Below, piece by piece: positions 6,176 through 57,732 of a DNA stretch of 64,000 nt. The notes below the pieces were generated by a model. The model worked only from the letters and a program-made list of their open reading frames with translations. It had not been told where the DNA came from and searched no databases. Source of the DNA: Stegostoma tigrinum (lineage: Eukaryota); NCBI RefSeq assembly GCF_030684315.1, contig NC_081387.1, positions 20,146,678 to 20,210,677 on the forward strand, given 5' to 3'. The translations under genes and the position numbers were made by a program. The first letter of the stretch is position 1. Every line of letters starts with the position of its first letter.

Positions 6176-6204
6176 TTGTGTTGTTCGCTGTAGATTGGGA
6201 ACTG
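6176..6204 (-). CDS. Gene A cytoplasmic micro-exon (AVPNLQRTTQ)
   Basis: 29 nt, ccatttccacag| ... CAA|gtaaga, phase 1-0. Same length, phase and flanks as gene B exon 4. Confidence 0.7.
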
Positions 6205-6577
6205 CTGTGGAAATGGAGTTTTGAGATAAGTCAGTGTTGGAGTCTAACTATGCAGCACTTACACACATTGTTGCACACAAGAAAATGCACACTAACACAT
6301 GTACACAGAAACACACCTGTCGAAAATGAAACAGGAGATCTCAGAAGAACATGATGGGAAGACGATGAACTTGTGGAAGGTGAGCAGACTTTAAGAATTA
6401 AAGGAGAGTTGGATGATCTCTCAGTTGCGAGAGGAATTTGACGTTATCAATTGGGATTTGTTTAGAAGGGTAGATTAGATGCCTTCATACATGAGACTTT
6501 GTTGTTGGTAGAATGGCAGGTAGGATTATTGTTGCGTTAACTTCGAATTTTTCACACATCTGAGCGTTAGATCTCCA

Positions 6578-6870
6578 GCACGGGAGCTTGTTGGTTAGCA
6601 CTACTACCACACAAGGCCATGGGCCTGGGTTCGATTCCACCCTCGGATAACTCTTTCTACGGAGTTTACATGTTCTCCCTGTGTCTACATGGGTTTCTTA
6701 TGGGTGCTGTGGCTTCCTCTCACAGTTGAAAGATGTGCAGGTTAGATGGATCGGCAATGGTGATTGCAGGGATATGGTAGGAAGTGGGCCTGGGTGGGAT
6801 GTTTTTCGGAGGGTTGGTGTGGACTCGATTGGATCAATGTCCTGATTCCACGCTGTAGGGATTCTATTGT
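6578..6870 (+). mobile_element. HE1-type tRNA SINE
   Basis: ggttagcact...gggttcgattcc head, V-SINE core ggagtttacatgttctccctgtg, tail ctgtagggattcta. Confidence 0.8.
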
Positions 6871-7052
6871 ACATGAATATACTATCGTACATGCACACCG
6901 ACACAAGGGTTACAGCAAAAAACGCGAGTACAAATGTACTTGAACAAAAGCATCTACAAGTGTGTTAATTCTTATTTTGTTTTAACTAAGCAGTTATAAC
7001 AATTAACGTAGAGAATATTTACATCAAGTAGAGAATATTTACATTCACATAC

Positions 7053-7081
7053 CATTCGTTGTATTGGTTGCACCGAGATCT
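7053..7081 (-). CDS. Gene A cytoplasmic micro-exon (DLGATNTTN)
   Basis: 29 nt, ctgctttttatag| ... ATG|gtatgt, phase 2-1. Frame-compatible with both neighbours. Confidence 0.65.
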
Positions 7082-7177
7082 CTATAAAAAGCAGAGTGGT
7101 TGATATTTGAATTTAATATTATGCACATTATGTTCTGAATAATCGTCAATGCTGTAATATAATTAATGGTCCCGTAC

Positions 7178-7196
7178 CTTTTCAGCTTCAAGATTA
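7178..7196 (-). CDS. Gene A cytoplasmic micro-exon (VILKLKR)
   Basis: 19 nt, attttattttccag| ... AAG|gtacgg, phase 1-2. Supplies basic juxtamembrane residues. Confidence 0.7.
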
Positions 7197-7878
7197 CTGG
7201 AAAATAAAATGGATATTTATTAATTTAGTTGTATTAAATTTATTAGTTTAAATATTTTAAACTCATTACTTCATGGGCGCGCTTCTTATTAGCATACGGC
7301 AAAATGATCATGTACATATGTTCTGGTGACATTTAAAACCTTAGCACAACGAGTATTTGGGCATTTCTTCCTTACATCATGAGCGGAGGATCTTCAGTTA
7401 CGCAGATTGATCACGGCGGTTGCAATAGTACACCTCAGAAAAGTGAAAATTGAGAAGGAATCTAAAAGAATGTTTAAAAAAGAGGCAGCTGGACGGAGTG
7501 GATAGGGAAAATTTTCGTAATGGTGGAAGGAGAGAGTGAAACCACATATTTAGGATAATTGGTTATAAAGCAATGGTGGCATGGGGAGAAACCGTATCAT
7601 ACAGCTGGATCATGGTGATGTTTTGAAGTGCACTGCCTGATTCAATTGAGGCATTCAAGTGGGCATTGGGCGATTATTTAGATAGAAATAAAGTGGTGCA
7701 ATATGAGGGAAAGGCAGGAGATTGTCACTAGGAAATAGAACTGGTGCATGCATGATTGGCCAAATGGTCTCACTCTATATTGTAGCAATTCTGTGATAGA
7801 GAGCAGAGTAGTTATCCAGTACTAAAGCAAAAGGATATTTGTTCAACAGGTCCCGGCGCATTTGACAGAATTGCAAAC

Positions 7879-7998
7879 CTTTATTTTGTTGGATCAGTCC
7901 ACATATAAGAACCATTACAATTATAACCAGTAAGGTCACAGCACCTCCCAGTCCTAGCAACGAATTATTATTTCCGCGATTTTTCTCCGATCCCTTGC
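7879..7998 (-). CDS. Gene A exon 3, stalk + transmembrane (RKGSEKNRGNNNSLLGLGGAVTLLVIIVMVLICGLIQQNK)
   Basis: 120-nt phase 1-1 exon, acceptor cctgtttcag|, donor G|gtttgc. ~22-aa hydrophobic helix with no charged residue. Confidence 0.88.
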
Positions 7999-8118
7999 CT
8001 GAAACAGGATTTAAAATAAACATGTCAAAATCCTATTTCGAAGATATTGAGGAGAAACTTTATTTAATGTTTTGATAAATAGCGTGATTGTAAAACTATA
8101 TCAATTGCATTTCTCTGG

Positions 8119-8277
8119 TATAACAAGGTGTGATGCTGGATGAACACAGCAGGCCAAGCGGCATCTCAGGAGCAGGAAAGCTGACCTTACGGGCCTCGTC
8201 AGCTTTCCTGCTCCTAAGATGCTGCTTGGCCAGCTTATCTCTGATTCTCCAGCATCTGCAGTTCCTATTATCTCTGA
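8119..8277. mobile_element. Penelope-derived hairpin with target-site duplication
   Basis: Inverted arms; flanked by atatcaattgcatttYtct on both sides. Confidence 0.8.
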
Positions 8278-8596
8278 TATCAATTGCATTTTTCTAGTGG
8301 CTTTCACAGTTTCAGGGTATTGTAAAGTGCTTTGCAACCAACAAACTAGTTTTGAAGTACAGCCACTTCTGGAATCCAGTAAACATGACAGCCAAACTGA
8401 GCTTAGGAAGACCACACAAACAGCAGTGTGATATTGATGGGTGAATTAGGCTTCTTCGTGATTTTGCTGACGTTGTATGATGCTGGAGACACATTGCGCA
8501 AACACAGAGGCCACATCCCTTGTAATTCCTCGAAATAAGGTCACAGAAACATTTGCAGTCACTTGAGAGGAGAGGCAGGGATTTAAATATCATGGA

Positions 8597-8730
8597 TTTG
8601 AGCAACGCTGAGTAACGTTTGTTGCCTATCCCTAATTGGATAGCTAAGCATCAATCACATCGCTATGGATCTGGAGTGAAATTTAAGCCAGACCAGAGAA
8701 TATCGCAAACTTCTTCCTTTAAAGGCCCCC
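8597..8730 (-). mobile_element. Deu/SacSINE1-type SINE fragment
   Basis: Family-B LINE tail (ttgcctatccctaattg) joined to the SINE body. Confidence 0.55.
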
Positions 8731-8756
8731 GCACCTTTAGATGGCATTAGATTTAT

Positions 8757-9059
8757 CATAGAATCCCTACAGTGTGGAAGTAGGCCATTTGGCTCATCAA
8801 GTTAACATTGCCTGCTCCTAAATGCATTCTGCCCAGACCCAAATCCTTAACCTATCCCTGTAATCCTGCATTTCCTATAGCCAAGCCATCCAGCCTACAC
8901 AACGCTGGACACTGCAGGGCAATTTAGCATGGCCAAGCCATCTAATTGCACATCTTTGGACTGCGAGGGAAACCCAGATCACCTGGAGAAAACCCACGCA
9001 GAACTGTGGAGCACGTGTTATGAGGCTGCACTAGTAACTACTGAGCCACTGTGCCGCCG
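8757..9059 (-). mobile_element. HE1-type tRNA SINE
   Basis: Reverse-complement match to 50943-51250. Confidence 0.8.
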
Positions 9060-9293
9060 TTTAGTGATGTTTTTGCTGAGAAACTGATAATTGTCAATGA
9101 GTTATGTGGTCTACAATAGAATAGTTTTGTATTTCAGACCTTTTTTCTTCTAAAAAATATCTTGCGATTCTTTCTTGATGATTGAAAGATTACAAGTTGT
9201 AACAAGGTATCGTCTTTTCAACATCACTCAATTATGCGTCCCTAAAGGACAACATTTTAGAAATAGAAATGACTATTCTAGCTTGCCACTTAC

Positions 9294-9635
9294 GCTTCAC
9301 TTCCAGCGTGGTGCCGTTTCCATCTCTTTCCTCCTTTCCCATCACACTTACACGACAGTAATAGGTATCTGAGTCTTTTTCAATCAGGTTGGAGATATTA
9401 ATGAAAATTCTGTTGTGAGTAAATGAATCACCGTCCGATTTCCGCAGTCGAGCTGCATAAAAAGGACTATCATCCAATTTGTACCCATCTGGTTTGCCCC
9501 GCGTCCAGGAAACTGCACCAACGAGAAACGGGGTTTCTTGAAAGTCCAACGCACAGTTCAGCGTGACCGATTCGCCCTCTGTTACAGTTATAAAGGGAGG
9601 GAACTGGAAGACAGTGACATCCATCTTCGTATCCA
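9294..9635 (-). CDS. NCR3: Gene A exon 2, single-exon VJ-type Ig V domain, NKp30/NCR3-like
   Basis: 342-nt phase 1-1 exon (ttttctttctaccag| ... C|gtaagt). Canonical V-set residues TLNC, VGAVSW, DSDTYYC and J-like GNGTTLEVK. The pattern VxQxPPxIxxxEG...GxVxWxR...RL...FxH...CRVxVxG...GNGTxLxV matches NKp30 as I recall it. Family call is strong; orthology is not established. Confidence 0.9.
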
Positions 9636-10033
9636 CTGGTAGAAAGAAAAGATTATTGGTTATAGTTTTATTCATATATTTGTATCTATGTATAGATTAA
9701 ACAAACGGGAGGCGCTAGCAATTTAAAATGCATTACACGCCTGCCGAAAGTGCATGGGAACTTCACTATATCAGATAGGGTCTGAACCACGAAGCGAGCT
9801 GAAAGTTTTATTGTGCTACTCCTTTTCACTGCTTTGTGATCTGAACCAAGAGTTCAAACCCTAAAATGCAATTGCTGAAGCAATGTCAAGATCCCCTATC
9901 GCTCAACATTTTACTTTTTCATTATTAATTGCTTTGTCTTGATGTGGGGCAACATTGAGCCTTCGTTGCTGGGGCTTCCTTACACTTAAATAAATTGCAG
10001 CAACTTTGCAAAGCGGGGCAGAAGTGAAGAGAG

Positions 10034-10201
10034 ATAGTAGGAACTGCAGATGCTGGAGAATCTGAGATAACAAGGTGTAGAGCTGGATGAACACAGCAGG
10101 CCAAGCAGCAACAGAGGAGCAGGGAAGCTTGAAAATTTTCTGAAGAAGGGTCCCGACCCCAAACGTCAAGCTTTCCTGCTCCTCTGTTGCTGCTTGGTCA
10201 A
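10034..10201. mobile_element. Penelope-derived hairpin with target-site duplication
   Basis: Inverted arms; aagtgaagagag on both flanks. Confidence 0.8.
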
Positions 10202-10544
10202 AAGTGAAGAGAGTTCTGTGCCGACCTGGCGACAGGGAAACGCCGATTAATTCACTTGTTTGATTCTACTCACATCGACAATGTGAAATCGCGTGTAATC
10301 TGGAATCTAGACACAAATTTAGCCCGTAGAAGTTTGTTGAACGTATGTGCGATAGGATGCTGTTACACCCTCACTTCGTCGACTTTATTTTGAATAAGCT
10401 CTTCATCTACTTAAGCCGAGCAGGTATTGCGTCTCTGGTTCCTGGCGAGACCATCATGTTATATAGTGGTTATTATTATACAGAGTACTGATACAGCACT
10501 TTCCAGGGCTCATAACCCGAGCGCGACTGCTCCCTTACTATGTA

Positions 10545-10665
10545 AAAACTGAAAGAACTGCACATGCTGTAAATCAGGAACTATGTCTGACGAAGGGTCA
10601 CCGGACACGAAACGCTAACTGTGAATTTTCTTCAAAGATGCAGCCAGACCTGTTGAGCTTTTGTC
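10545..10665. mobile_element. Penelope-derived element, second subfamily
   Basis: ctgacgaagggtcaccggacacgaaacg motif. Related copies at ~19670, 31960, 32590, 38985, 52495 and 61780. Confidence 0.6.
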
Positions 10666-11988
10666 CTGCTCTTACTCCCTTACTGTTAACTGTTGCAATG
10701 TCGAAGTTAGCTCTGAGCTTCAAGGAAATCTACACCAAGTGATTAAAACAAAAACAAAAATATCAGAAGATGCGGTGTGATTTGCAAAGAGGAGTCAAGA
10801 GGGCATTGTGATTTAGAGAGGAGAACAGATCACGGGATCAAGATAAGCAGCAGAAGCGCGAGGGCCAGATGAAAGGAAATGGATATTCAGAAGTGGGGAA
10901 TAAAAATTAATACGTTCCATTGAAGTAGGATCAAGGAAAGGGAAGCGGACGAGAAACAGAAAGATGGAAGAATAGGAGGTTTGTATAAGCAAGGGTGAAA
11001 ATAAGGGAGAAAACACAGTCGGGTGGCGACCACAAGTAATGATGGTGGTATTGGGTTATATCGACAGTGTTGGCGGCGTGTGAGGGGTTATAGGGTGGTG
11101 AACCTTTGGGGTTGATGCTCACAAAGTGTAAGAAGAATAGCTCCGTCCCAGATTGGGGAGGCTGTCGTTTGAATACAGATCTGTCAAATTGCCGGAAAAA
11201 ATGTTGACTTTGCCTGAACATCTGGTCGACGATGTAAGGTCAGGAGGCTGACACTATGGGGAGGGTCACGGACGATCGCACCGAGCTTTGGTTGAATCCG
11301 CAGTTGCTCGGATACTTAAGCAAACCCCAAGAAGCAGCACCCAGGTCTGGACGAATAGTCCTGTAAACAATACAAATGTCAGCGACGCGTAGATCCCGTG
11401 AACAGAATAAAACCAAACGGCTACACCATAGTAAATGCACGTGTTTATGATTCTTTTTGGAAAAAAGAAAATAACTATAAATTTGTATAGCGTCCCTTCA
11501 CGTACGCAGTGCTTCAGAATTGAACCTTGCTTCTCAGTTCTTGTCTTAACACGGGCATCAAATCCAGTTAGCAGCGCCTCACTCGTCGGCTGCAATTCAG
11601 TTAAGAGGTTCGCCCCGAATTTCTCAAACCCTCCGCCGCAATTCCGATGCGAGATGGCTTGTGAAACTTAGCTGCCGATCTCCCGCCAAAATTCCGAGCA
11701 GGAGAGAGAGAAATGCTGGCAGGAACTGCACCTCTGTGCGTCCCAACTTTCGGATATAATGGCGGGAGCGGCACTATGTTTCATACCGCAGGCGGCTGCG
11801 AGTTGCAGGCGCTTGGCGTCCACAAATTCGCTTCCGTTCGCATTTCGGTGGATGTTTCAGCCAGTCCACTTACCGGCGGTAAGATGGCCATGGCTTCTTA
11901 GAACACGCGTAGTTTCTGCAACATTTGCGACGCAAAATAATCTTTTTTTTGTCCTCGATTTGGAACGGCAAAGATCAGTGGAACTCAC

Positions 11989-12046
11989 CCGCACTTGTTG
12001 CAAAGATAATCGACAGCATGAGGGTCAGCAGTTGTCGCAAAACCAT
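11989..12046 (-). CDS. Gene A exon 1, signal peptide MVLRQLLTLMLSIIFATSA
   Basis: ATG at 12046, 19 mostly hydrophobic codons + G, then strong donor G|gtgagt. Phase 1 matches the V exon (G|TG = Val). Lies in a CpG-rich stretch. Confidence 0.85.
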
Positions 12047-13478
12047 GCTCTCTCAGTTTGTCAGGAGGTGGCTGATATACCGATTTAGATGGTGAGAGAG
12101 GTACGTAACATTAATAGTTCTCAAAGCGCGAATGGAATTATTTGCTGTCTCCACGTAGATGACACAGGATATGCGATTTGTGGCTGCAACTGAGATCTCT
12201 TCACCTTTAAAACGGCCCTGGCTTAGAGTTTTGAAATTGTCAATAAATATCTTGATGACAGCGTTTGATAAGTAGGGAACGCAGACCGTGAAACAAAGCG
12301 ACGACCCACATGACATGAGATCTGGGCCCGAAACGTCAGTTTTTGTGCTCTTGAGATGCTGCTTGGCCTGCCGTGTTCATCCAGCTCCACACTTTGTTAC
12401 CCACATGACATGTATGTGTGATCTTATATTTAGGTGGTGGAGAGTCCCTGCCCCGCGCATTTCTCCATGACGATGGACTTTAAGATGCGCAAAGGGGAGG
12501 AAGGAAACTATCGGTTCTGTTACAGCGGGGTCAAAAATTTTCATTCACCTAATCGTGGTTCTGTGATTCCAGCCATAATGTAACTCAGGCAACTAAGGTC
12601 CCCGGGTATGCTGGCCAAGTGGATTAGCCACGGTAGATACAATTTACAGGGTTAGGGTGAGCGCTGAGCCTGGGTGGGATACACTTTAGAGGATCGGTGC
12701 AGACTCGATGGGCCGGATGGCCCTTATCTGCACTGCAGGGGCACTGTGGTTCCGCAATGCTTACAGTTACTGATGTCGTCAACATTTAGCCAACATCCCA
12801 GTTCCGGTGTGGAGTTTGCAGGTCTTTGACATCTGCTCTCATTGAGCTCGTCGTATGACAAGTCGGTGTTCGTGATCCTTCATCAGGTGGTTGTGAAATC
12901 ACCCCCACCACGCCCAACCTCAAGCAAGCCTAAGCGGAACAAGCAAGGCTGATACTATTCTGTTGAAGGCGCTGCCTTTCAGGAGAAGCTTCGAATAGTG
13001 GATTGGTATTGTGTTCGGATTGACTGCCCGGCGGTAAAGGTGCTTTCCGAGGTCGTGAGAGACGTTGTAGAACCCTTTGCGTTTGCTCTAAACGTCCGGT
13101 CACTTCGCTTGAAACGAAAAACTTCAGGGAATCATGTTGCTTGTTGAGGTGTGTTACGACTGAATCCAGATTCTATGCTGGTTATGCTCACAGTCTCCGA
13201 GATCAATATAAATGGCGTTTATCTGCGTGCAGAACCATCCACATAGCCCAATCATTTATATTAGCTATTACCCGCAGAGTTAACTTCTGCTAGTTATGTT
13301 GATGGAGCATAAAGATCTCACTTGCAGGTTTAATTTTTAACAGAAAGAGTTCAAAAGTCTTTTTGTGTGTAATCGAAACAAAACAGTGAAAACGAGACTA
13401 ACTATAGATTTTCAGGAATAAAGTTCAGAGTGCATTTGAAAGGTTTAAAATATAAAATGAATATTTTGTTCACTAGTT

Positions 13479-15712
13479 TACATAGAACATAGAAAAGTAC
13501 AGCACAGTACAGACCCTTCGGCCCACGATTTTGTGCCGTGGAATAATCCTAATCCAAAAATAAAATAACCTAACCTACACTCCCCTCAATTCACTGCTGT
13601 CCATGTGCATGTCCAACAGTCGCTTAAATGTCACTAAGGACTCCGCTTCCACGACTACCACTGGTAAACTATTCCATGCGCTCACACTTCTCTGGGTGAA
13701 GAACCTCCCTCTGACGTCTCCTCTATACCTTCCTCCTAACACCTTAAAGCTATGACCCCTCATGGCAGTCAATCCTGCCCTGGGGAAAAGTCTCTGGCTA
13801 TCGACTCTATCCATGCCTCTCATTACCTTGTACACCTCGATCAGGTCACCTCTCTTCCTTCTTCTCTCCAGAGAGAAAAGTCCGAGCTCAGTCAATCTCA
13901 CCTCGTAAGACAAGCCCTCCAGTCCAGGCAGCATCCTGGTAAACCTCCTTTGCACCCTCTCCAAAGCCTCCACATCTTTCCTATAATAGGGCAATCAGAA
14001 CTGGGTGCAATATTCCAAGTGTGGTCTCACCAGGGTTTTGTAGAGCTGCAGCATAACCTCGAGGCTCTTAAACTCAAACCCCCTGTTAATGAAAGCCAAA
14101 ACACCATATGCTTTCTTAACAACCTTATCCACCTGGGTGGCAACTTTGAGGGAGCTATGCACCTGAACACCAAAATCCTGCTGTTCCTCCACACTGCCGA
14201 GAATCCTGCCTTTAATCCTATATTCAGCATTTATGTTCGACCTTACAAAATGCATCACTTCGCATTTATCCAGGTTGAACTCCATCTGCCATTTCTCAGC
14301 CCAGCTCTGCATTCTGTCAATGTCTCACTGAAGCCTGCAATAGCCCTCGATACTATCAACGGCACCTCCAACCTGTGTCATCAGCAAACATACTAACCCA
14401 CCCCACAACCTCCTCATCCAAGTCATTTATAAAAACTACAAAGAGCAGAGGCCCAAGAACAGAACCCTGTGGGACACCACTCAGCACTGACCTCCAGGCA
14501 GAATACTTACCATCTACAACCACTCTCTGCCTCCTGTCAGCCAAGCAATTCTGAATCCAGACAGCCAAATCACCCTGTATCCCATACCTCCTGACTTTAT
14601 GAATGAGCCACTTGTGGGGAACCTTATCAAATGCCTTACTGAAGTCCATGTACATCACATCCACTGCTCAACCCTCGTCAACCTGTCTCGTGACTTCCTC
14701 AAAGAACTCAATAAGATTTGTAAGGCATGACCTGCCCCTCACAAAGCCATGCTGACTCCCTTTAATCACGCTATGCTTTTCCAAATAGTCATGAATCCGA
14801 TCCCTCAGAATTCTTTCCAAAACCTTGCCGACCACAGACGTAAGACTGACTGGTCTGTAATTTCCAGGGATTTCCCTATTCCCTTTCTTGAAAAGAGGAA
14901 CAACATTTGCCCCCTCCAATCTTCTGGTATGACTCCCATGGAGATTGAGGAAGCAAAGATCTTTGCCAGCGGCTTAGCAACCTCCTTTCTCATTTCCCGG
15001 AGCAACCTAGGATAAATCTGGTCTGGCCCTGGGGACTTATCAATCTTAATGTTTGCCAAAATTTCCAGCACATAAACTTCCTCAGTCTCGATCTGTTCAA
15101 GCCTGTTTTCCTGCTCCTCAAAGTTCTCATTCGCAACAAGGTCCCTTTCCTTAGTGAAAACCGAAGCAAAAAACTCATTTAGGGCTTCCCCTATTTGCTC
15201 AGACTCCACACACAAGTTCCCTACGTTATCCCTGATTGGCCCTACCTTCTCCCTGATCATTCTCTTATTCCTCACGTATGAGTAAAATGCCTTCGGGTTC
15301 TCCCTAATCCTTCCTGCCAAGCCTTTTTCGTGCCCCCTCCTGGCCCTCCTCAGTCCACTTTTGAGCTCCTTCCGAGGAAGCCTGTAATCCTCTAAAGCTG
15401 TGCTAGACCCTTGCTTCCTCCACCTTACGTATGCTGCCTTTTTCTTTTTGACAAGAAGCACCTCTGTACCCGTCATCCAAGGCTCCTTAATCTTACCCCT
15501 TCTTACCTGTCTCAGAGGAACAAATTTATACATCACTCACAACAACTGCTCCTTAAACAGCCTCCACATGTCTGCTGTGCCCTTTCTGTGGAACAATTGC
15601 TCCCAATCTGTACTTCCCAACTCCTGTCTGATAGTGTCATAGTTTCCTTTACACCAGTTAAAGATCTTCCCTGGTAACTGCTCCTTTCCCTTTCCTTGGC
15701 TATGGTAAATGT
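13479..15712 (-). mobile_element. Relatively young 5'-truncated CR1 LINE (ORF2 RT, frameshifted)
   Basis: Consecutive ORF pieces [56 protein letters not shown]; (ttctatg)n 3' tail at 13479. Confidence 0.95.
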
Positions 15713-40777: not shown

Positions 40778-41020
40778 ATGATGATTATAATTTGGCAATT
40801 TATGATGATGCAGCTCATTCTCTTTCCACTAATCATTGGTGAGTTAAATTATATTGTTCGTCATTATGCACTGCTCTTCTTATAGCACATGGTACCTTGT
40901 GATGCTCTGTTTTATTTAGACAATTTGTTCGTCTGTAATGCCCTCGTCAACTATGATCACTGTTATATGATTACATAATTCTCAGTTTGCAATTTACTTG
41001 AATAAGTAGAATACAATTCA
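40778..41020 (+). pseudogene. Probable degenerate paralog of gene B (leader exon 40778-40838 plus decayed Cys exon ~40920-41004)
   Basis: Leader MMIIIWQFMMMQLILFPLII G|gtgagttaaat aligns with the gene B leader. The downstream phase-1 segment DNLFVCNALVNYDHCYMIT* has a stop and no GT donor. Confidence 0.5.
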
Positions 41021-47600: not shown

Positions 47601-48671
47601 ATCCATCATATAAACGCAGAGTTTCACAACAACCATTCGCAACATGCACATCAGCGAATCACCAGGGCACTTTAACTAGCATGGCAAGGGCTGGGGATAC
47701 ACACAAACATCAAACACTGCTGTTTCTGTACAAGCCGTACACGTTAACATCTTGACTTGGAACCATGTCACCATGCTCACAGATGGTATGTTAAAACCCT
47801 GTATTTCTTTTCTTGTAGGAAGATGTTGGCATAAAATTCGAGTCACTGGGCCAGTTAACCAGATGTCCAAGCTGACACTCAAATCCCTTCAAGAACGCTG
47901 TTCAACTGTATTTTTTAAAAGATAGACTTGAAGCTAACCACAGGCTCACTTACCATGAATATATTGTCCTTGCCGTGGTAAAGAAACAACAGGAAGGAAA
48001 CTATCATCTTTACTCCGTCTAGCCGACTTGAGGTTTCAGACTCAAAATGTCGTTGCATTTATCCAGCAGTGGCCCATAGCTCAAGTGTAAATCTCGAGGG
48101 GAAGCATGTTAGGGCCTTATCAGAGAGGGTCAGGATGCATGAAAGAATTTTTAAAAAGCCAGTATTTGAGAAATGACTACAGACGACTCCTTGCTAATCT
48201 GCTTTTCATGTCAGCTAATATTGCTCCGAATTAAACAATAATAAATATCGTGAGACGGTGGCTGTACAATACAATTGAGCATTTAATTGCCAGGAGAGTA
48301 ATAAACAGTTTGCGTGCATTCAGACGTCATTGGTGAAATACTGGGATTTTGTTTGATCCTGGGTTAGTGCCTTGTTTCTAGAATGGTATTGTCACATGTT
48401 TGACATTTTAAACTGTGAAGCATACATAAACTTCAACAAGAAAACAGGAGTGTCACTTTTACCAACTGGGTAAGTTTAGTATTAAAGTTTAGCATTAAAT
48501 TAATGGGCTCACTAAAACCTCCCTTCAACCTTTCTCATGCGTGCATTTGACCTTCTTCTTTTGGAATACGTTAGGGCGAATTCAACCTTCTTTCCGTGCG
48601 GTCTATTTAACAAATTTTTCCATCACTGTGAGTCCGATGAGTAGACCTGCGAGCAAATTGTTTCTAATTGT

Positions 48672-48961
48672 TGACTCACTAGGAGAACGCGCCTAATAGC
48701 CGCTAAAATGTGGTTTCCCGCACATTTATGAACTTTGTTGAGACTCAATATTGGTGCACACGAAAATCACACAACCTGTCTGTTGAAGCACGAGGGATTC
48801 GTTTACATTGAAAATTTTCCTCTGCCTTTTAATTTCCAAAATAATCAGTAGGGTGAGATTTTATTTAGAGTGATGTTCATCTTGGACATCCTGTGGTTGA
48901 GATATCTCCATCTGCAAAGTACAATGACAGAAGCTGTGTACGCCCACAGAGATAGACCACA
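48672..48961 (+). promoter_or_regulatory. Putative gene B promoter: AP-1 plus three RUNX motifs
   Basis: TGACTCA 48672-48678; TGTGGTT 48709-48715 and 48892-48898; GACCACA 48955-48961. An Ets/PU.1-type GAGGAAGT sits in intron 1 near 49310. Confidence 0.35.
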
Positions 48962-49051
48962 AATTGTTCCGTATGCGCCTACTTATTAAGACTGTTCGCC
49001 TGGAGACTCCACGTTTACACGCTGCATGTCTTTACCATGAACGACTGGAGG

Positions 49052-49109
49052 ATGTGGATAATCCAGCGAATTGCCTTTACGCAGCTGATTCCCTTTGCAC
49101 TCTGCAATG
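49052..49109 (+). CDS. Gene B exon 1, signal peptide MWIIQRIAFTQLIPFALCN (alternative in-frame ATG at 49037)
   Basis: 58 nt, phase 1, donor G|gtgagt. Same size and donor as the gene A leader; homologous to the leader copy at 40778. Confidence 0.72.
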
Positions 49110-49499
49110 GTGAGTTAAATGTATTCTGTAGAGCTTGTAATATCCATCTAACTAATAGTTCCTGACCCGTCTTTTTAATAATTTGAGAATTATTGCAACC
49201 GTCTATGTTAACTTTGGGACATTTGTTAAATTAAGCAAAACTTCAAATTTTTACCGTTCCATGGGAGTCGCTTGCCTCAGCACATCCTGTAAACAGTTAC
49301 AAATCTCCGAGGAAGTGACCAATTCCAAGACAAAATTGTTCTACTGTTTAGTTTGACAACTAAATCCTCCGCTTTGAGCGGTGGTTGTAATGTCTTTTTT
49401 CATGGAGCAGCTCGCTGGTTCAAAAGATGGGAAAAAAGCTCCAACAGTCAATTAAATTGTGAAAAAATAGCAGACACAATGAAAAAGGCTAATAACTGC

Positions 49500-50800
49500 A
49501 TTACCACAATTCAACGAATGCTCTTTCGACCATCTGTGGGTGCGGAAGTTTGAGTGATGAAGAAAATAAATTGTCAGGAATTCGAGAAAATTTAAAACAT
49601 GAAAAGAGAAGTGGAGCACTTAAACAGGACAGTACCATGTTGGTGGAGTGTATAGTAATGTGGGAGTTGAGGTTTATTGCAGAGAACTGTGAGGTGATAC
49701 ACTTCAGTACAAGGAACATGGGGTGACATAAATTGAAATATTCCAAAGTGTGTTGGAGCAGAGAACCAGGATGCATATAAGTCATTAAAATTGGAAGGAC
49801 ATTGAGACAGAGAGCTGTTAACCAAGCATGCTGCATGTTAGGTTTCATAGAGTACAAATGTATGGACTTTATGATGAACATATTCAGAACAATGGTTGGA
49901 GATCAGTTGCGGTACAATGCTGGGCGTCACATATTGAAGAAATGTGAATGTATAAGAAAAGCGTGCAGAAGAGGTCTAGGCAAATGGGATTGGAAAGTTC
50001 ATTTTTTTGGAAAGACTTTCGGTGTTAATCTTATTTTCCTTGGAAGCAAAGAGTTTAAGAGCAGATTTCATAGAAGTTTCAAAATCATGTAAGAGATTGA
50101 AAGGCGACCTTGTAGAAGTTTATAAAATAATGAAGGGTATAGATAGGTTAATGGTCGTTGTTCCCCCCCAACCACCCCGCCCCCGAAAGGGTGATATAAA
50201 AGTCAGGGGACACATTTTTAAGGTGAGAGAGAGGTTTAGAAAAGACATGAGGGCAGTTTTTTGCAGGGAGGGCGGTTTACATGCGGAATGGATTTACGGA
50301 GGCAGTGGTGTATGTGGGTACAATGACAGTGTTTAAAAAGCATTTAGATGTGTACATGAATAGGAAACGTTTGAAAGAATACGGGCTAGCATCAAGCAGG
50401 TGGGATTTGTTTAGTTTGGGATTCTATTCGGCATGGACCAGTTGGACCAAAAAGTCTGTTTCCGTTCCATTTGACTCAATGACTCTGTGAGGGGTGTGGA
50501 AAAAAATGATAGCGAGGAATTGTTCCTGTGTGGAAATGGACTGAGACTGAGAGGGCACATGTTTAAAGTATTTGATGATGCATGCAAATGCGAGGAGAGA
50601 ACTATTGTTCACACACCAAGTAGTTGAGGCTGATTCAGTTGAGCATTCAAGACGGCCCCGGATGTTTGTTCAAATAGAAAATTGTGCACAGAAAGAGACT
50701 GAATTTAAGTTCAAATGCTCAAAGAACCAGTGCAGATATGAATAGGTGAATGATACCTTTTGGCACGCTAACAATTCTGAGATTCCGCGAAGGCTTGGCA
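49500..50800 (+). mobile_element. Nested CR1 fragments
   Basis: LKGDLVEVYKIMKGIDR, FKKHLDVYMNRK. Confidence 0.75.
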
Positions 50801-50942
50801 AGTTGGTGGTACACACATTGCAGTTTGAACTAATGCTATATGATCTTATTTAAACATATGCAGCTCTAATGGATGCTGAGAATATGTTTTCCTTTCTAGA
50901 ACCAGCGCTCGCCTTAAAAAGAAACATTAGGGATCAAATTCA

Positions 50943-51250
50943 GGGCGGCACGGTGGCTCAGTGGTTAGCACTGCAGCCTCACAGCGCCAGGGACCCAGGT
51001 TCGATTCCAGCCTCGGGCGACTCTCTGTGTGGAGTTTGCACGTTCTCCCCGGGTCTGCGTGGGTTTCCTCCGGGTGCTCCGGTTTCCTCCCACAGTCCAA
51101 AGGTGTGCATGCTAGGCGGATTGGCCAGTGGTGTTCAGAGGTGTGTGGGTTATAGGAGGATGGTTCTGGGTGGGATGCTTCAAGGGCAGTGTGGACTTGT
51201 TGGGACAAAGGCCCTACTTCCACACTGTAGGGAATCTAATGTAATCTAAA
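50943..51250 (+). mobile_element. HE1-type tRNA SINE, well preserved
   Basis: GGGCGGCACGGTGGCTCAGTGGTTAGC (A box), GGTTCGATTCC (B box), V-SINE core, CR1-like tail. Confidence 0.92.
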
Positions 51251-51645
51251 TGTTCAAAATGGCACTGAGGAGAACGTTATTCTTTCAAAAAGTTGTTAAT
51301 CTGTGGGTTTTTCTGACGCAGCGACTAGCGGCGACGTTGAATCATTTCCAGCCTGAGTTAGTCTCTGGATGAAATGAGAGTAAAATGGAATCGTGGGAAT
51401 TAGGATAATTTTGAGTGGTTTTGAGGTACTGAGTGCATAATTGGATCCGCCATGATTTTATGAAATGTTACAGTTGATGCAGGAAGCGTTAAATTTTTCT
51501 GGTCCTAATGCACGTCTTCAAATGGAATAAAATGCAAGGATATCCACGCCAGGCACCTTTAAAATGGAAAAAAGATGATCCATTTTTGTTTTAGTAAATC
51601 ATACATGTCGTGTTATATTACAGTTCTCTCGTTTTATAACTGCAG

Positions 51646-51753
51646 TAACAATCCAGGCAGAGTTCGGAAAAGGGAAAATGTGCTGTAAAATATTAATAGA
51701 CAATGAATGCGAAAAGATAGAAAGTGGGCGTATCAACAATAAAGATGTCGAAT
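51646..51753 (+). CDS. Gene B exon 2, short Cys-rich ectodomain (VTIQAEFGKGKMCCKILIDNECEKIESGRINNKDVE)
   Basis: 108-nt open phase 1-1 exon, ctctcgttttataactgcag| ... T|gtaagt. The junction T|GT makes a fourth Cys. I found no Ig exon between leader and TM. Confidence 0.68.
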
Positions 51754-52082
51754 GTAAGTAGCAATTCAAGAAACCAATTTTTAGTATGCATGATTAAATT
51801 TGAAGCTTTTTTCCCCCATGATAAGGAAATGCAAGAAAATTCTGTTCTGACTCTAGAAGTTAGTCAACTGTCATGAAACGCGAGGCTAACATTGTCCTGA
51901 AGACACGGAAGATCTGTTGAAGTCCAACTTGTTTATTAGCAACTGACAGAAAAGAAGGGAGTTGAGTAATCGCAGAAGTGTTGGTGATGACGAGCACAAG
52001 AGTAGAAACAGCTCTTGATGTTGCCACATCACAGAGATAACTTTCCATTTAGTTGCTCCCAAGCACCTCTCCTAGTTTAAGG

Positions 52083-52325
52083 CATGGAGCTGGATGAACA
52101 CAGTAGGCCAAGTAGCATCTTAGGAGCAGGAAAGCTGACGTTTCTGGCCTAGACCCTTCATCACCTGACGTTTCGGTCCTAGACGCTGCATCATTTTCTG
52201 ATGAAGAGTCTAGGCCCAAAACGCCAACTTTCCTGATCCTAAGATGCTGCTTGGCCTTTTGTGTTCATCTAGCTCCACACCTTGTTAACGCAGACTCTCC
52301 AGCATCTGCAGTTCCTACTATCTCT
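52083..52325. mobile_element. Penelope-derived hairpin
   Basis: Inverted arms; flanks tctcctagttt. Confidence 0.8.
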
Positions 52326-53049
52326 CCTAGTTTGACGTAGTAATACACCTGCCCACCGCGTTTTGACCTTTGGCATTCTGCTTTCTGATACTGATTCTTG
52401 CTAAGGAATTCCTGCCGCAGACGCTGATTCCCTTTCGCACGTCACAGTTAAGAAGCACTGAGGTTGAAATCACTGCCCGATCCTCCAGGAAGTCGGGAAT
52501 TGCTGGCGGAACGCAGTTTGTCTGGTTGCACCTGTGGAAAGAGAACAGAATTAACTTTTCGAGTACGCTGAATCTGCTTTGCAGAGTTTCACCAGCGATT
52601 TCTGTTTCCCCTTCCGATCTCCAGAATCCGCAGTGCTTCGTTTTATTTTTCTACCAAAAACGTGTGCACTGCCCGGGAATCTTGCATGATACCACTACAC
52701 CAACAGCGCATACGCGCATGGTCCTGAATTCACTTAACTTCAAGCACTGTTTTTCAGCGCGCTTTTGGATTTGGCGTGTATTTGCCTTCGCTTTTCTGCA
52801 TGCTATCTTAAACTTCAGTACCAGATCCACAACGCCCCTTACTTATTTTGCCCATTTCTCTTGTTACTGGTTCTGGATGGCGCCTGGAGGGAAGCATCGA
52901 GATTTCACTGATGCAATGCATTTCTGGCAGGAAAACAAATGTGTCTCACTGATCTGTGAACTTTTGTTTTAAACAGAAGCTGCGTGATCTCATCGATCAG
53001 TTGTTTTCAACATGAATTTCAACTTCTGCGGTCATACTATTAATTGCAG

Positions 53050-53160
53050 GTGTCATAGTGGAAAAAAAGACTGTCATCACACCAATTTTGCTGGGCGCTC
53101 TGGCATTGATAGGTCTGCTGATTATATTCTTGACAGTTCGAGGGCTGCGGGCAACGTCAG
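53050..53160 (+). CDS. Gene B exon 3, transmembrane (CVIVEKKTVITPILLGALALIGLLIIFLTVRGLRATS)
   Basis: 111 nt, phase 1-1, ttaattgcag| ... G|gtttgt. ~22-aa uncharged helix followed by RxxR. Confidence 0.82.
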
Positions 53161-53392
53161 GTTTGTATTTTCGTTGCACTCAAGGAAATCTAGTCGAACA
53201 GTAAGAGGTAGTAAGGTCGGGAGTCTTCTTTAGAAATGCAGGAGGAGGAAGGGAGCTCCGAAATGAATAGAGAGGAGGAGTGAAGCTGGGGAAGTAGGTG
53301 GGATGATTATAGGCTAGTGCAGGTAGGCAGTGGTGAGGATTGATCAGTGAGGTGTGGGTAGCGGACAGGTGGGATAAAAGAGAGCAGAGCTG

Positions 53393-53588
53393 GGTGGTAC
53401 GGTGGCTCAGTGGTTAGTAGGGCTACCTCAAAGTCACCAATAGTTCGGGGTTCGATTCCAGCCTCGAGCTGGGTTAGACGTGGGGAAATACAGCAGTCGG
53501 GGAATAGGTCTGCGTGAGATGCCCTTTGGAGGGGCAGTGTGGGCTAGTTGGGCCGAATGGCCTGTTTCCACGCTGTAGGGATTCTCTG
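53393..53588 (+). mobile_element. HE1-type SINE, internally deleted
   Basis: A/B boxes and tail present. Confidence 0.7.
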
Positions 53589-53784
53589 AAAGGGTTGTTG
53601 TGCCTTATTCCATTTACGCACTCAGTACACGGACGATTATTTGAGTTCCCGTCAATGATGCTGACCATTGTAGAATCATCAATGAATTTATCCACTTCTG
53701 GTGAGACGGTTGAAGATGGTTGCGCCTTGGACACTAAACCTGAGGAATATCTGCTGATATAGTTCGGGCTCGGATAACAAGGAA

Positions 53785-56700
53785 AATGAAGTTGCTTAGG
53801 CCCCTCATGGTTTTACAAACCTCAATTAGGTCACCCTGCTGTTTCCGACCCTCCAGTGAAAATATCCCCAGCCTGGTCAGACCATCCAGCCCCGGCACCC
53901 TCTCAAGTTTAACAGCATTCTTCGTCTCGAAGGGCGTCCAGAATTGTATGCATTACAATTCCAAACGTGGCTTCACCAATTCCCTGAACAGCTTGCAACA
54001 TGACATCCCAACTCTTAAACACGATTTTATGACCAAGCTTGCCATAAGCTACCTTCACCAGCCTGTTTAGCTGCAACTCCACTTTCAAGGACTTATGCCC
54101 GCTCTCCTTGTTTGGCAACACTCCTCAGCGACCCCCCCGCCCACCCCGTTTAATTGTATAAGTCCCACCCTGATTTGTCTTACCAACTGCAACACCTTAC
54201 GTTTATCCAAATTAAACTCCAATTGCCACTCGTTGGTCCGTTTGATCAACATCCTATGGCAATCTGTGATAATCTTCTTCACTGTCCACTGCTCCACCTA
54301 TTTCGGTGTCATCTGCAAATTTACTGACCATACCTCATGTATTTACATTTAAATTATTTACCTAAATGAGAAAAAGCAGCGGACCTAGCAATGATCCTTG
54401 TGGCATACCACTGGTCACAGGCCTCCAGTCCAAAAATAAACGCTCCACATCCCCAACCCGTCTCCTATCGTCAAGCCGATTTCGTACCCAATTGCTGGAT
54501 TCCCCTGGATTCTAAGTGACCTAACCTTACTAACCATACTACCATGCGGAACCTTGTCAAAGATTTTGTTGAAGCCCAAATAAACAATGCCTGTTTTTCT
54601 GCTTTAACCAACCTTCTTTGTCACTTCTTCAAAAGACTTCAGTCAAGTTTGTGTGACAGGATTTCCCGCGGACTAAACCATGCTGACTATCCCTAACCAG
54701 TCCTTGCCTTTCTAACTGCATGTAAATCATATCCATCAGAATCCCTTCCAACAACTTACCCGCCACTCAACGTCAGGCTCACCGAGCTATAGTTTCTCGA
54801 CTTTTCCTCACCGCATTTTTAAAATAATGGCATTACATTAACCATCCTCCATTCTTGTCACACCTTACGAGTGGCTATCGATGATACAAACATCCCAGCC
54901 AGAGGCTCAACAGTCTCTTCCCTAGCTTCCCACAAAGTACCAGGATACTTTCGACCAGGACCTTGGGATTTATCCACCTTTATGTGTTTTAAGACCTCCA
55001 GCACGTCCTCGTCAGAGATACGAATTCGTTTCAAGATATCAAAGCTTATTTCCCTAAAATTTCCTGGTTTCCAAGTCCTTCTCCAAGCAAACATTGACAT
55101 GAAATAGTCATAGTATTCACCCATCGTCTGTGGTTCCACAAGCAGACGGCTACGCTGATATTTAGGGGACCATATGCTGTCCCAGTTACTCTTTTGCACC
55201 TAATATAACATCTCTTTTGATTCTCATTAAATGTATTTGCCAAAGCTGTCACTTATATCCTTTTGCCTTCCTGTTTCCCTCTCAGAAATACTTCTCCCGC
55301 CCTTACACTTTTCTCCGGATTCGCTCAATCCTAGCTGTCTATATCTGATGTATACTTCCTTCTTTTTCTTGATCAGAGCTTCAATTTCTCCAGTCATCCA
55401 GTATTCCCTGCATCTACCAGTCTCGTCCTTCACGCTAACAGGAATATACTGTCTCTGAACTCATGTTATATCATTCTTAAATGGCTTCCACTTCCCAACC
55501 ATCCCTTTACCTGCGAATGGCTTTCCCCAATCAACTTTTGAAACTTCCTGTTTAAAACCGACAATATTGGCCTCACTTCAATTTAGAACTTATAACTTTT
55601 GCGACACTTCTGTCCTTTTGCAAGACTACTTCGAAACTAATAGAATTATAATCACTTGTTCACAAGTGCTCCTTCACTGGCACCTCCGCCTCTTGTCCTG
55701 CCTTGCCAGCAGAAAACCTACCTACCAACCTCATCCCGCCCCCTTGACCTGTTAGTCCTCTCCGGGCTGACCCATCCCCTCCCTAACTCTCCACCGACAC
55801 TCACCTCTACTGACTCCATCCCCGCCTCTTTAACTTGTCTGTCTCCTCTCCACCTATCTTCTCCTCTATCCATCTTCGATCCGCCTCCCCCTCTCTCTCT
55901 GTTTATTTCAGAACCCTCACCCCCTCCCCCTTTACTGCTGAAGGGTCTAGGCCTGAAATGTCAGCTTTTGTGCTCCTAAGATGCGAAAGTTTTCTTGTAC
56001 ATGTTTAACCTCCCTTAACGGTACGGCAGTCCCATACTTTCTTTGGAAATTAAAATCCTTCACCATTACAACCAAATTATTCTTACAAATATCTGAGATC
56101 TCCTGACATATTTGTCCTTTTTTTGCGTACAGGACACACTTGGGCAGTTTTCCACACTGTTGGGGAAATGACAATGCAGTGGCTGCACTGGAGCAGCTCA
56201 GTGAGGGGGGGGGGGGGGGGTGGTGACAAGTTCTGGAGTCCAACTCTTCAGTTAAGGAATATTGCAGGGCCCTAGCCTTTGCAGTATACAATGCCTCCAA
56301 CAGTTTCTTGACACTGAATTGGCTGAAAACTTGCATCTGTGATGCTGGGATCACTGATACTTGCAGAAATGGATCTTCCGCTCAGCACTTCTATCTTAAG
56401 GTTGATGCAAATGCTTCAGCCTTATCTTTTGCACTAATGTACTGATCCCTTCTACCATTGAAGATGGAAATATTTGTGCAGCCGTGTCCTTCTCCAGTAT
56501 GTTATTCAATTGCCCATGACCTTCACGCTGGATATGGCAAGACTGCTCATCTTAGATCTGATCAATTGGTTGTGAGATCACTTAACCCTGTTTATCAGTT
56601 GCTGCTTGAGCTGTTTAGCCCACAAGTATTCCTGTTTGCGAACTTCACTAAGTGGGCACCCCATTTGTCTGGATGTCTAATACTACTCCTGAAATTTCCA

Positions 56701-56945
56701 TTAAACCAGGGCTGGACCTCTTGCTTGATGGTAATGGTTAAATATGGGATATGCCAGGCCAGATTGTGTGAGATTACAATTCTGATCCTGTTGATGGCTC
56801 TAAGCGCTTCCTGGATGCCCAGTCCTGAGCTACTAGATCTGTTTAAAGCCTGTTGCATTGGGCATGGTGATAGTGCCACACAATACGGTGGAGCGTGCCC
56901 TCAAAGTGAAGAGTGCCACTTTTACTGATTCTGTCATGGGCAGAT
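53785..56945 (-). mobile_element. Decayed CR1 (53785-55680), Penelope fragment (55700-55985) and family-B LINE fragment (56110-56945) in gene B intron 3
   Basis: HIKVDKSQGP, EWQLEFNLDK, ITIKQEVQPWFN remnants. Confidence 0.8.
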
Positions 56946-56959
56946 TCAGCCATTTCCAA

Positions 56960-57290
56960 CCATTCAATGGTTGGGAAGTCAAGAAAGCAGGGGTCACAGT
57001 CTAGGCATACTGGGGTAAGCAATTTAGGATTGAGATGAGAAGTCTCTTCACCCAGAGAGTGGCGAACCTGTGGAATTCTGTACCACAGAAAGCGACTGAG
57101 TCAAAAAATGCAATGTTTTCAAACAGCAGATCTTTTTTTTTTTAATATCTAAAAGGAGAGAATGTATGGGGAGAAAGAATAAACAGAGTAATTAGTTACA
57201 TGATGAGCCATGATCATACCGAATGGCAGTCCAAACCAGAAGGGTTGAATGGCCGACTGCTTTTCCAACTTTCTGTACTTCTATGTTTAA
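56960..57290 (+). mobile_element. CR1 3' fragment
   Basis: ttcacccagagagtggcgaacctgtggaattc ... ttctatgt tail. Confidence 0.7.
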
Positions 57291-57703
57291 TGAGTCTCCC
57301 TCATGCATGACTTCCAAGTGATAAAACGTTAGTTGCACATTAGTCAAAATAGCACATCTAGCTTTTCTGTTTGATGGGAAATTAAGGAAAAAGTCTTGCC
57401 CAGTGTCACAGAGAAGCAGACCACTAGTTAGTGCTGAGCCTTGGCAGTTTTCTGTGACATCACGATGGCATTCGGATTTAAAGAATCATAGTTTATTTAT
57501 CTACATTATCTGCTTTTCATTTATGTTTGGTAGAATTTAATAGGAACAGAAATCATTTCAATGTTTGTGGTGTTGGGTATGGTATCAGAGAGGAGGTTTC
57601 ATCATTTGTTTTTATTGTCATTTCTGTACCTAAATATACATTGCTGTTATATGGCGTTTTTCCCCAAATGAAATATAATTCTGTTGTGTTCATGTTACCA
57701 CAG

Positions 57704-57732
57704 GTTCCAGGGGTGTAAAACCAACGGCACAA
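57704..57732 (+). CDS. Gene B exon 4 (GSRGVKPTAQ)
   Basis: 29 nt, phase 1-0, gttaccacag| ... CAA|gtaaga. Bridges the phases of exons 3 and 5 exactly. Confidence 0.78.

What the first reader, a model, noticed from the sequence alone, without database searches (positions are those of the whole stretch)
6176..57732. Gene A (Ig V) and gene B (non-Ig) share one exon scaffold: ectodomain swap within a receptor family
Seen: both have a 58-nt leader exon ending G|gtgagtt, one symmetrical phase-1 ectodomain exon, an uncharged TM exon ending G|gtttg, and a 29-nt phase 1-0 exon with identical flanks (ccacag|...CACAA|gtaaga; 13 of the last 19 nt identical; ...NLQRTTQ vs ...GVKPTAQ). Inference: common ancestry, with a 342-nt V exon exchanged for, or reduced to, a 108-nt Cys exon. 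This would be a visible route from an NKp30-like receptor to a short ITIM adaptor.
Basis: partly seen in the sequence, partly recalled or inferred. Interest (0 to 1): 0.78.

Follow-up and report, generated by a model that had tools for sequence, protein, structure and literature searches.

The report
Shark NKp30 paralogue, eroded Ig domain
In a shark's immune-gene cluster, a copy of an NKp30-type receptor gene has lost most of its antibody-like binding domain, likely in steps (predicted proteins of two other sharks keep a part-trimmed form, and old coding letters likely survive in an intron), leaving what is predicted to be a small inhibitory signalling protein whose expression is untested.

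Summary
The features are real and the two genes are paralogues, but the evidence favours erosion of the V exon over a swap. Gene A has seven coding exons, not five, and is 215/238 identical to a nurse shark NCR3 protein. Predicted proteins of two squalomorph sharks carry gene B's transmembrane segment and tail (one also its leader) with an A-type V domain lacking its first 19 residues. That start falls on a cryptic acceptor 57 nt inside gene A's V exon, and the intron before B's 108-nt exon still matches those V codons (24/36; no unrelated site among 5115 scores above 22). B's exon aligns with the 3' end of that V after a deletion of about 46 codons (0 of 400 shuffles). A neighbouring paralogue, B2, shares the deletion; both frames are open (dN/dS 0.39). 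The cluster follows PRRC2A and AIF1 on the MHC contig. B is predicted to act as a ligand-blind, disulfide-linked ITIM adaptor, like LST1, but fails LST1 membership.

The parts
11989..12046 (-). Gene A exon 1, 58-nt leader (phase 0-1)
   Evidence: matches the N-terminus of nurse shark P0001
9294..9635 (-). Gene A exon 2, 342-nt VJ-type Ig V domain (phase 1-1)
   Evidence: Pfam V-set E 2e-10; best PDB matches are human NKp30, E 1e-8
9579..9614 (-). Pyrimidine-rich V codons (FQFPPFIT region) ending in a cryptic CAG acceptor 57 nt inside gene A's V exon; first base after it is 9578
   Evidence: the position equals the 19-residue gap of the squalomorph B-type proteins
7879..7998 (-). Gene A exon 3, stalk plus uncharged TM (120 nt, phase 1-1)
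7178..7196 (-).
7053..7081 (-).
6176..6204 (-). Gene A 29-nt phase 1-0 exon
   Evidence: its peptide is in nurse shark P0001
2433..2552 (-). Gene A tail exon with one tyrosine motif (VEYSTI) and the stop codon
40781..40838 (+). Orphan B-type leader exon C (58 nt, open frame, intact donor)
   Evidence: 37/58 identical to B's leader; no V or TM exon detected between it and B
49052..49109 (+). Gene B exon 1, 58-nt leader
   Evidence: aligns with the Heptranchias P0011 leader
51595..51645 (+). Intron end of gene B, likely the former 5' part of the V exon; holds a second in-frame candidate acceptor (exon start 51595)
   Evidence: 51607-51642 matches A's V codons 24/36; acceptor scores 3.5 (51595) and 5.1 (51646)
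51646..51753 (+). Gene B exon 2, 108 nt, phase 1-1: likely V-exon remnant (3' strands), with three Cys inside and one formed at the junction with exon 3
53050..53160 (+). Gene B exon 3, uncharged TM (111 nt, phase 1-1)
   Evidence: 56% identical to the Pristiophorus B-type segment
57704..57732 (+). Gene B 29-nt phase 1-0 exon
   Evidence: same size and phase in B2
59932..60120 (+). Gene B tail exon with two tyrosine motifs (LPYARL, VEYASI) and the stop codon
   Evidence: ranked 3rd of 12076 ORFs by a profile built on A-type tails only

Best explanation
Gene B is a paralogue of the inhibitory-type NCR3 (NKp30-family) gene A whose V exon was likely eroded in steps rather than replaced, and it is predicted to work as a ligand-blind, disulfide-linked inhibitory adaptor. 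Step 1 (inferred from protein models of two squalomorph sharks, so before the squalomorph-galeomorph split): an A-type gene duplicated. The copy moved its acceptor to a cryptic CAG 57 nt inside the V exon, which turned the first 19 codons into intron, lost two micro-exons of 19+29 nt (frame kept), and gained a Cys at the V/TM junction. Step 2 (inferred; in the lineage leading to this genome): an internal deletion of about 46 codons, plus a further net loss of 10 to 12, removed the V core, including the first canonical Cys and the Trp. Step 3: the gene duplicated into B and B2, and both frames stayed open. Predicted function: a 164-aa type I membrane protein with a Cys-rich stub of about 45 residues that cannot form an Ig fold, dimerises through Cys, and recruits SHP-1/SHP-2 through two phosphorylated tyrosine motifs to damp signalling from neighbouring receptors. 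Shown: gene anatomy, homology, synteny, open frames. Inferred: order of events, expression, dimer, signalling.
For: (1) A profile of the B and B2 tails found 2 of 1.84 billion proteins at E<=0.001: one repetitive false hit and P0009, a fused Pristiophorus model with V + B-type TM + tail followed by the V2 orthologue, the same order as B2 then V2 here. (2) A second search found Heptranchias P0010/P0011 with B's leader, a V domain and B's TM, and in P0011 B's tail. (3) P0011 and P0009 align end to end with four A-type proteins, with a 19-residue gap at the V start (seen in P0011; the P0009 part begins at the same point) and a 16-residue gap at the micro-exons. (4) V tree: A-type plus B-type 100/97, apart from 10 other V domains. 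Tree without V: B, B2 and the two squalomorph genes 100/100. (5) The 19-residue gap predicts an acceptor 57 nt into A's V exon, and a CAG lies there. B's intron matches the preceding codons 24/36, exceeded only by A itself among 5115 acceptor-like sites; B2 scores 20/36 (13 of 5115, the three genes included). (6) The B/B2 exon-2 profile aligns to the squalomorph V with score 23.2, 0 of 400 shuffles; six other V domains were not significant (17-120 of 120). (7) Donor-anchored match to A's V end: B2 25/40, exceeded only by A itself among 658 GTAAG sites; B 18/40, 6 of 658. (8) B against B2: dN/dS 0.39 (95% CI 0.24-0.58), exon length differences 6, 0, 0, 12 nt, both frames open in 56 of 3000 neutral simulations at low divergence and 0 of 3000 at high. 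(9) PRRC2A and AIF1 lie 145 kb and 59 kb before the window, on the contig that holds all 36 listed MHC class I matches.
Against: No transcript evidence for B or B2 is at hand. The squalomorph genes are known here only as predicted proteins (one is a fused model), so their exon borders are inferred, not read from DNA. Single-sequence tests of exon 2 are weak: B against the squalomorph V domains 150 and 146 of 2000 shuffles, B2 9 and 127 of 2000, B against A 1687 of 2000, and the control V5 scored 39 of 2000 with B. The middle of the exon-2 alignment is uncertain. The acceptor likeness was first seen by eye and tested afterwards. B/B2 exon DNA identity (62-73%) is no higher than that of alignable intron pieces (67-70%), so constraint is modest. 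B2 has no detectable leader of its own and has His in place of the first tail Tyr. B has a second in-frame acceptor, so the exon could be 159 nt. Dimer and phosphatase binding rest on motifs only.
Confidence: 0.8

Rival explanations
1. Same descent by erosion, but B and B2 are now decaying relics: loss of the V domain was the start of pseudogenisation and no functional protein is made today.
For: B2 lacks a local leader and its first tail Tyr; an orphan leader lies upstream; exon identity equals intron identity; no V-less orthologue turned up in the protein searches.
Against: After a divergence of about 30% both frames are open, all splice sites of B are intact, exon length differences are multiples of three, gaps are rarer in exons (7 in 434 nt against 32 in 806; P about 0.005), and synonymous changes exceed non-synonymous ones in exon 2 itself (Fisher P 0.0014).
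Confidence: 0.15
2. True ectodomain swap: a foreign phase 1-1 Cys-rich exon replaced the V exon by exon shuffling or gene conversion.
For: Exon 2 has no Pfam match and no significant pairwise likeness to A's V. Its Cys pattern is not the canonical V pair.
Against: Both borders of the exon carry A-type V sequence (acceptor side, donor side), the exon body aligns to the B-type V of two other sharks (0 of 400 shuffles), and the junction Cys is shared with those V-bearing genes.
Confidence: 0.06
3. Gene B is the shark orthologue of mammalian LST1.
For: Same class III neighbourhood. Same layout of short Cys-bearing ectodomain, one TM and two inhibitory tyrosine motifs (LST1 as described in PMC8111073).
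Against: No Pfam LST1 match for B's exons, for the B-type proteins, or at B in a genome search. B has no Cys right after the TM and has a leader exon. B's V loss appears lineage-specific, since squalomorph B-type genes keep a V. LST1 was not found in two marsupials and is described as a eutherian gain (PMC1654159).
Confidence: 0.04
4. A and B are unrelated, and the shared exon sizes and flanks are splice consensus plus chance.
For: 4 of 5 direct DNA alignments of A and B regions are no better than shuffles; tyrosine-motif tails are common among inhibitory receptors (general knowledge).
Against: End-to-end alignment through the squalomorph intermediates, the trees and the null tests.
Confidence: 0.01

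Closest known systems
Shark NCR3 (NKp30) family, nurse shark QTT61901.1 (P0001)
   Same: Gene A is its orthologue: 215/238 identical, same length, uncharged TM, tyrosine-motif tail. Gene B descends from this subtype.
   Different: Gene B has no V domain, lacks two micro-exons, has four Cys in a short stub and keeps both tail tyrosines, whereas A here and in nurse shark keep only the second.
Uncharacterised squalomorph proteins XP_067830066/67 (Heptranchias perlo, P0011/P0010) and UniRef100_UPI00398E9DB9 (Pristiophorus japonicus, P0009)
   Same: Same TM, 29-nt-exon peptide, two-tyrosine tail and junction Cys as B; same leader in Heptranchias; same order before the V2 gene in Pristiophorus.
   Different: They keep a V domain of about 94 residues with both canonical Cys and the Trp and lack only the first 19 residues (Pfam V-set 19.8 bits for P0011, below cut-off).
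Human NKp30 (NCR3)
   Same: Single V domain, class III location (PMC6514059, passages); best solved-structure match to A's V, E 1e-8.
   Different: NKp30 has a TM arginine and signals through CD3zeta/FcRgamma; A and B have uncharged TM segments and their own tyrosine motifs.
LST1 (mammalian class III transmembrane adaptor)
   Same: Very short ectodomain with a dimerisation Cys, one TM, two ITIMs, class III location (PMC8111073, passages). This is the best functional model for B.
   Different: No sequence-family match, no palmitoylation Cys after the TM, B has a leader exon, and LST1 is reported absent from marsupials.

Membership tests
NCR3/NKp30 family (gene A) | Single Ig V domain encoded by one exon, closest to NKp30 | tested here: met
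   342-nt exon, Pfam V-set E 2e-10; the top four PDB matches are NKp30
NCR3/NKp30 family (gene A) | Orthology with a named shark NCR3 protein | tested here: met
   215/238 identical to QTT61901.1; 97/97 in the V tree
NCR3/NKp30 family (genes A and B) | Location in the MHC class III region near AIF1 and PRRC2A | tested here: met
   PRRC2A family match at C44:19.998-20.002 Mb, AIF-1 match at 20.088 Mb, window from 20.147 Mb; MHC class I and TNF clusters on the same contig. Each match is to a Pfam family, not a proven orthologue.
Mammalian-type activating NKp30 (genes A and B) | Charged TM arginine that couples to ITAM adaptors | tested here: not met
   TM cores are uncharged; feature from PMC6514059
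NCR3/NKp30 family (gene A) | Binding to a B7H6-type ligand (recalled) | not testable with these tools
   needs a binding assay
NCR3/NKp30 family (gene B) | Intact V domain | tested here: not met
   36-codon exon, no Pfam match; B is filed as derived from the family, not as a structural member
NCR3/NKp30 family (gene B) | Descent from an NCR3 gene | tested here: met
LST1 | Match to Pfam PF05083 | tested here: not met
   None for B's exons, P0009, P0010, P0011 or their TM-tail parts, or at B in the genome. B's spliced protein as a whole was not scanned.
LST1 | Short ectodomain with Cys, single TM | tested here: met
   Cys at 32, 33, 41, 56 of the predicted 164-aa protein; dimer formation itself untested
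LST1 | Palmitoylation Cys directly after the TM | tested here: not met
   no Cys between residues 57 and 142
LST1 | Two ITIMs that bind SHP-1/SHP-2 | tested here: inconclusive
   LPYARL and VEYASI fit the recalled ITIM consensus or a close variant; binding cannot be tested here

The most novel reading that the evidence does not exclude
Erosion of the V exon of an inhibitory NCR3 duplicate is a recurring way to make ligand-blind ITIM adaptors in the MHC class III region: shark gene B records the route step by step, and mammalian LST1, a gene of unexplained origin beside NCR3, arose the same way from an NCR3 paralogue.
Probability: 0.2. Interest if true: 0.8.

Novelty: new variant of a known kind. 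Interest (0 to 1): 0.58.

Why it matters
It gives a three-stage series for the loss of an Ig domain: full V, V trimmed by an acceptor shift, and a 36-codon stub, with the old codons still readable as the intron's pyrimidine tract. Surveys of shark NCR3 genes that rely on the V domain would miss such a gene. If expressed, B would be an inhibitory adaptor made from a receptor, in the same neighbourhood where mammals carry LST1, and it turns the origin of LST1 into a concrete test. If it is silent, it is still a clear record of birth-and-death evolution in the oldest NK-receptor cluster, but of modest interest.

Tried and rejected
Expression: no RNA holder listed. The four holders cover introns evenly and behave as DNA contigs, so they say nothing about splicing. 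A protein search with B's tail alone found 0 of 61 candidates at E<=1. P0008 is a repetitive, unrelated protein and was dropped. AlphaFold2 on P0011 with a six-sequence alignment gave mean pLDDT 40.9, which is uninformative, so no fold search was run. The protein atlas did not answer. Global alignment of the extended exon-2 frame with single V domains was mostly not significant. A weak Pfam LST1 match on the Heterodontus A-type protein (E 0.07 whole, 0.011 for TM plus tail, under the cut-off; 1 of the 4 A-type species scanned) was rejected as evidence, because unrelated TM families hit the same proteins at E 0.006-0.08. The near-equal second introns (1295 and 1296 nt) were set aside as chance, since B2's is 5301 nt. 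No leader for B2 was found between B and B2, and no decayed V exon in the four gaps around B. The micro-exon scan missed two known 29-nt exons at its threshold, so absence of micro-exons in B rests on the protein alignment. No complex prediction was sent, since exon 2 alone would not test the dimer. Kinlein 2021, Janes 2023, Flajnik 2012 and Draber 2012 were not held.
Full report
Setting. The window is G000:C44:20146678-20210677. C44 holds all 36 listed MHC class I matches and a TNF-family cluster at 24.9-25.2 Mb. A BAT2_N (PRRC2) match lies at 19.998-20.002 Mb and an AIF-1 match at 20.088 Mb, just before the cluster. PMC1654159 (passages) places NCR3, AIF1, BAT2 and LST1 in the mammalian class III inflammatory region. 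I fetched 200 kb on each side. The 464 kb hold six intact V exons: V0, A, V2, V3, V4 and V5. The species is close to the nurse shark by protein identity; no attempt was made to name it.

Observation. All listed features exist at the stated places, and the leader and 29-nt likenesses beat local nulls (3 of 3566 sites reach 13/19, two being A and B; only B and leader C of 982 sites reach 28/58, A aside). They were revealed by the nurse shark protein QTT61901.1 and found at 7196-7178 and 7081-7053. The seven-exon model gives 238 aa, 215 identical to that protein. Gene B has five exons and 164 aa. A paralogue B2 lies just beyond the window (C44:20220307-20227353) with exons of 114, 111, 29 and 201 nt and no leader found. 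Direct comparison of A and B is weak: 4 of 5 regional DNA alignments did not beat 30 shuffles, and B2 shares only 8 of the last 19 nt of the micro-exon with A.

Intermediates. A profile of the B and B2 tails, searched against 1.84 billion representatives, gave 2 hits: a repetitive false hit, and P0009 from Pristiophorus japonicus. P0009 is a fused model holding a V domain, B's TM, the micro-exon peptide, B's tail, and then the V2 orthologue. A search with an alignment of that part and four B/B2 exons scored 8000 candidates and returned one, Heptranchias perlo XP_067830067, with isoform XP_067830066. It begins with B's leader. Aligned with four A-type proteins, the B-type proteins are collinear end to end, with a gap of 19 residues at the start of V (seen in P0011; the P0009 part begins at the same point) and 16 residues where A's two extra micro-exons sit. 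In a V-domain tree of 17 rows, the two B-type V domains group with the five A-type ones at 100/97. In a tree of leader, TM and tail (9 rows, no outgroup), B, B2 and the two squalomorph genes form one side at 100/100. A profile trained only on A-type tails ranks A, B2 (E 6e-5) and B (E 0.049) first to third of 12076 ORFs. Common ancestry is therefore established.

Swap or erosion. The 19-residue gap predicts an acceptor 57 nt inside A's V exon; a CAG with a pyrimidine-rich run, made of the FQFPPFIT codons, lies exactly there. The 36 nt before B's acceptor match those codons at 24/36. Among 5115 acceptor-like sites only A itself is higher, and the next score is 22. B2 matches at 20/36 (13 of 5115, the three genes included). 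Against five other V exons B's best match is 15-19; for B2 one control (V2, 21) is as good as A. I first saw this likeness by eye, but its position was then predicted independently by the squalomorph proteins. At the other border, B2 matches the end of A's V exon and the intron start at 25/40, above all 658 GTAAG sites except A itself; B scores 18 (6 of 658). The exon body, as a B/B2 profile, aligns with the two squalomorph V domains at 23.2 against a shuffle mean of -7.9 (0 of 400), with a deletion of about 46 codons after the first two residues; six control V domains were not significant. Single-pair tests are weaker, and one control beat the true homologues for B; an earlier global test against single V domains was mostly negative. 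Taken together, the exon is best read as the 3' remnant of the V exon. The net loss from the 94-codon squalomorph V is 56-58 codons. The fine alignment in the second half is unsure. B keeps a second in-frame acceptor at 51595, near the ancestral position, so a 159-nt form is possible; B2 shows no such site.

Is B alive? B against B2 over 144 codons gives dN/dS 0.39 (CI 0.24-0.58, Nei-Gojobori, which can inflate dS), and both frames stay open in 56 of 3000 neutral simulations at 0.15 substitutions per site and 0 of 3000 at 0.47. Exon lengths differ by 6, 0, 0 and 12 nt; gaps are rarer in exons than introns (7 in 434 nt against 32 in 806); exon 2 alone has more synonymous than non-synonymous change (P 0.0014). 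Against this, exon identity (62-73%) is no higher than that of alignable intron pieces (67-70%). Selection thus acted after the V loss, since both copies share it, but it was modest, and present-day expression is not shown.

Mechanism. Predicted, not shown: after signal cleavage B presents about 45 residues with Cys at 32, 33, 41 and 56. Three Cys positions are shared with B2, and the junction Cys with the squalomorph genes. The stub cannot make an Ig fold. The TM core is uncharged, so coupling to ITAM adaptors as in human NKp30 (PMC6514059, passages) is unlikely. Two tyrosine motifs 23 residues apart, also present in A-type orthologues of three other sharks, fit the recalled ITIM pattern. The most likely role is a disulfide-linked adaptor that brings SHP-1/SHP-2 to the membrane without a ligand of its own. 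I put about 0.85 on the erosion history and about 0.55 on this function.

Comparison with what is known. Gene A is an ordinary member of the shark NCR3 family; PMC12227049 (passages) cites eight nurse shark NCR3 records and calls NCR3 MHC-linked. Gene B is derived from the family but fails its V-domain test. It works, by prediction, like LST1 as described in PMC8111073 (passages), but is not a member: no Pfam match, no Cys after the TM, a leader exon, and LST1 was not found in marsupials. The weak LST1 match on the Heterodontus A-type protein is at noise level; the link to LST1's origin is my hypothesis, prompted by recall.

Novelty and limits. Nine literature searches (listings and abstract starts only) showed no report of a V-less shark NCR3 paralogue. 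PMC10751288 had no occurrence of NCR3 or LST1 (term search), and PMC4015914 (passages) gave no exon sizes. The key paper, Kinlein et al. 2021, was seen only as a title in a reference list (PMC10450919); it and Janes 2023 (recalled) could not be read, nor their supplements, and may already mention this gene. Whether a V-bearing B-type copy exists elsewhere in this genome was not searched with a B-type V. The search with A's V, which is 41-44% identical to the squalomorph B-type V, listed 10 of 50 scored candidates; nine are in the tree, where none but A joins the A/B group, and one was not fetched. The tail search found only B and B2 among 3 candidates. Earlier scan notes (unchecked) describe a seven-exon inhibitory gene and a case of exon borrowing in other shark genomes; five other look-ups returned nothing.

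Verdict. New variant of a known kind. Interest 0.58.

Noticed in passing
window 40781-40838 (+): Orphan B-type leader exon C, 64% identical to B's leader, about the same divergence as B against B2, while B2 has no leader of its own. Either B sits inside B2's first intron, or two leaders serve two alternative exon cassettes.
   Followed up: partly
window 2552-2433 (-) and L010:6476-6676: The first tail tyrosine is lost in gene A (also in nurse shark) and in B2 (His), but kept in B and in the A-type proteins of Chiloscyllium, Mustelus and Heterodontus.
   Followed up: no
G000:C44 about 20,290,976-20,291,092 (-), gene V3: The candidate TM exon of V3 has a lysine inside the hydrophobic stretch, a possible activating-type member of the cluster.
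   Followed up: no
G000:C44 about 20,310,860-20,310,970 (-), behind gene V4: A second, shorter TM-like exon copy ending in stop codons lies 0.9 kb before V4's open TM exon.
   Followed up: no
G000:C44 about 20,274,460-20,274,580 (+): Fragment of a V exon (3' strands only) between V2 and V3, probably a pseudogene.
   Followed up: no
G000:C44 about 20,244,566-20,244,705 (+), gene V2: V2 also has a 19-nt phase 1-2 micro-exon after its TM exon, matched by the Pristiophorus model, followed by a 35-nt candidate; this suggests the micro-exons are old and were lost in the B lineage.
   Followed up: partly
G000:C44:11.31-11.93 Mb (L004, L005, L007, L008): A second group of five NKp30-like V exons of two subtypes lies 8 Mb away, beside MHC class I genes.
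   Followed up: partly
window 45550-43595 (-): A 652-codon open frame between leader C and gene B that looks like a retroelement reverse transcriptase (by recall, not tested).
   Followed up: no
window 9579-9614 (-): Gene A still carries the cryptic acceptor used by the B lineage, with a score like B's real acceptors (3.4), so A may make a minor isoform lacking the first V strand.
   Followed up: no
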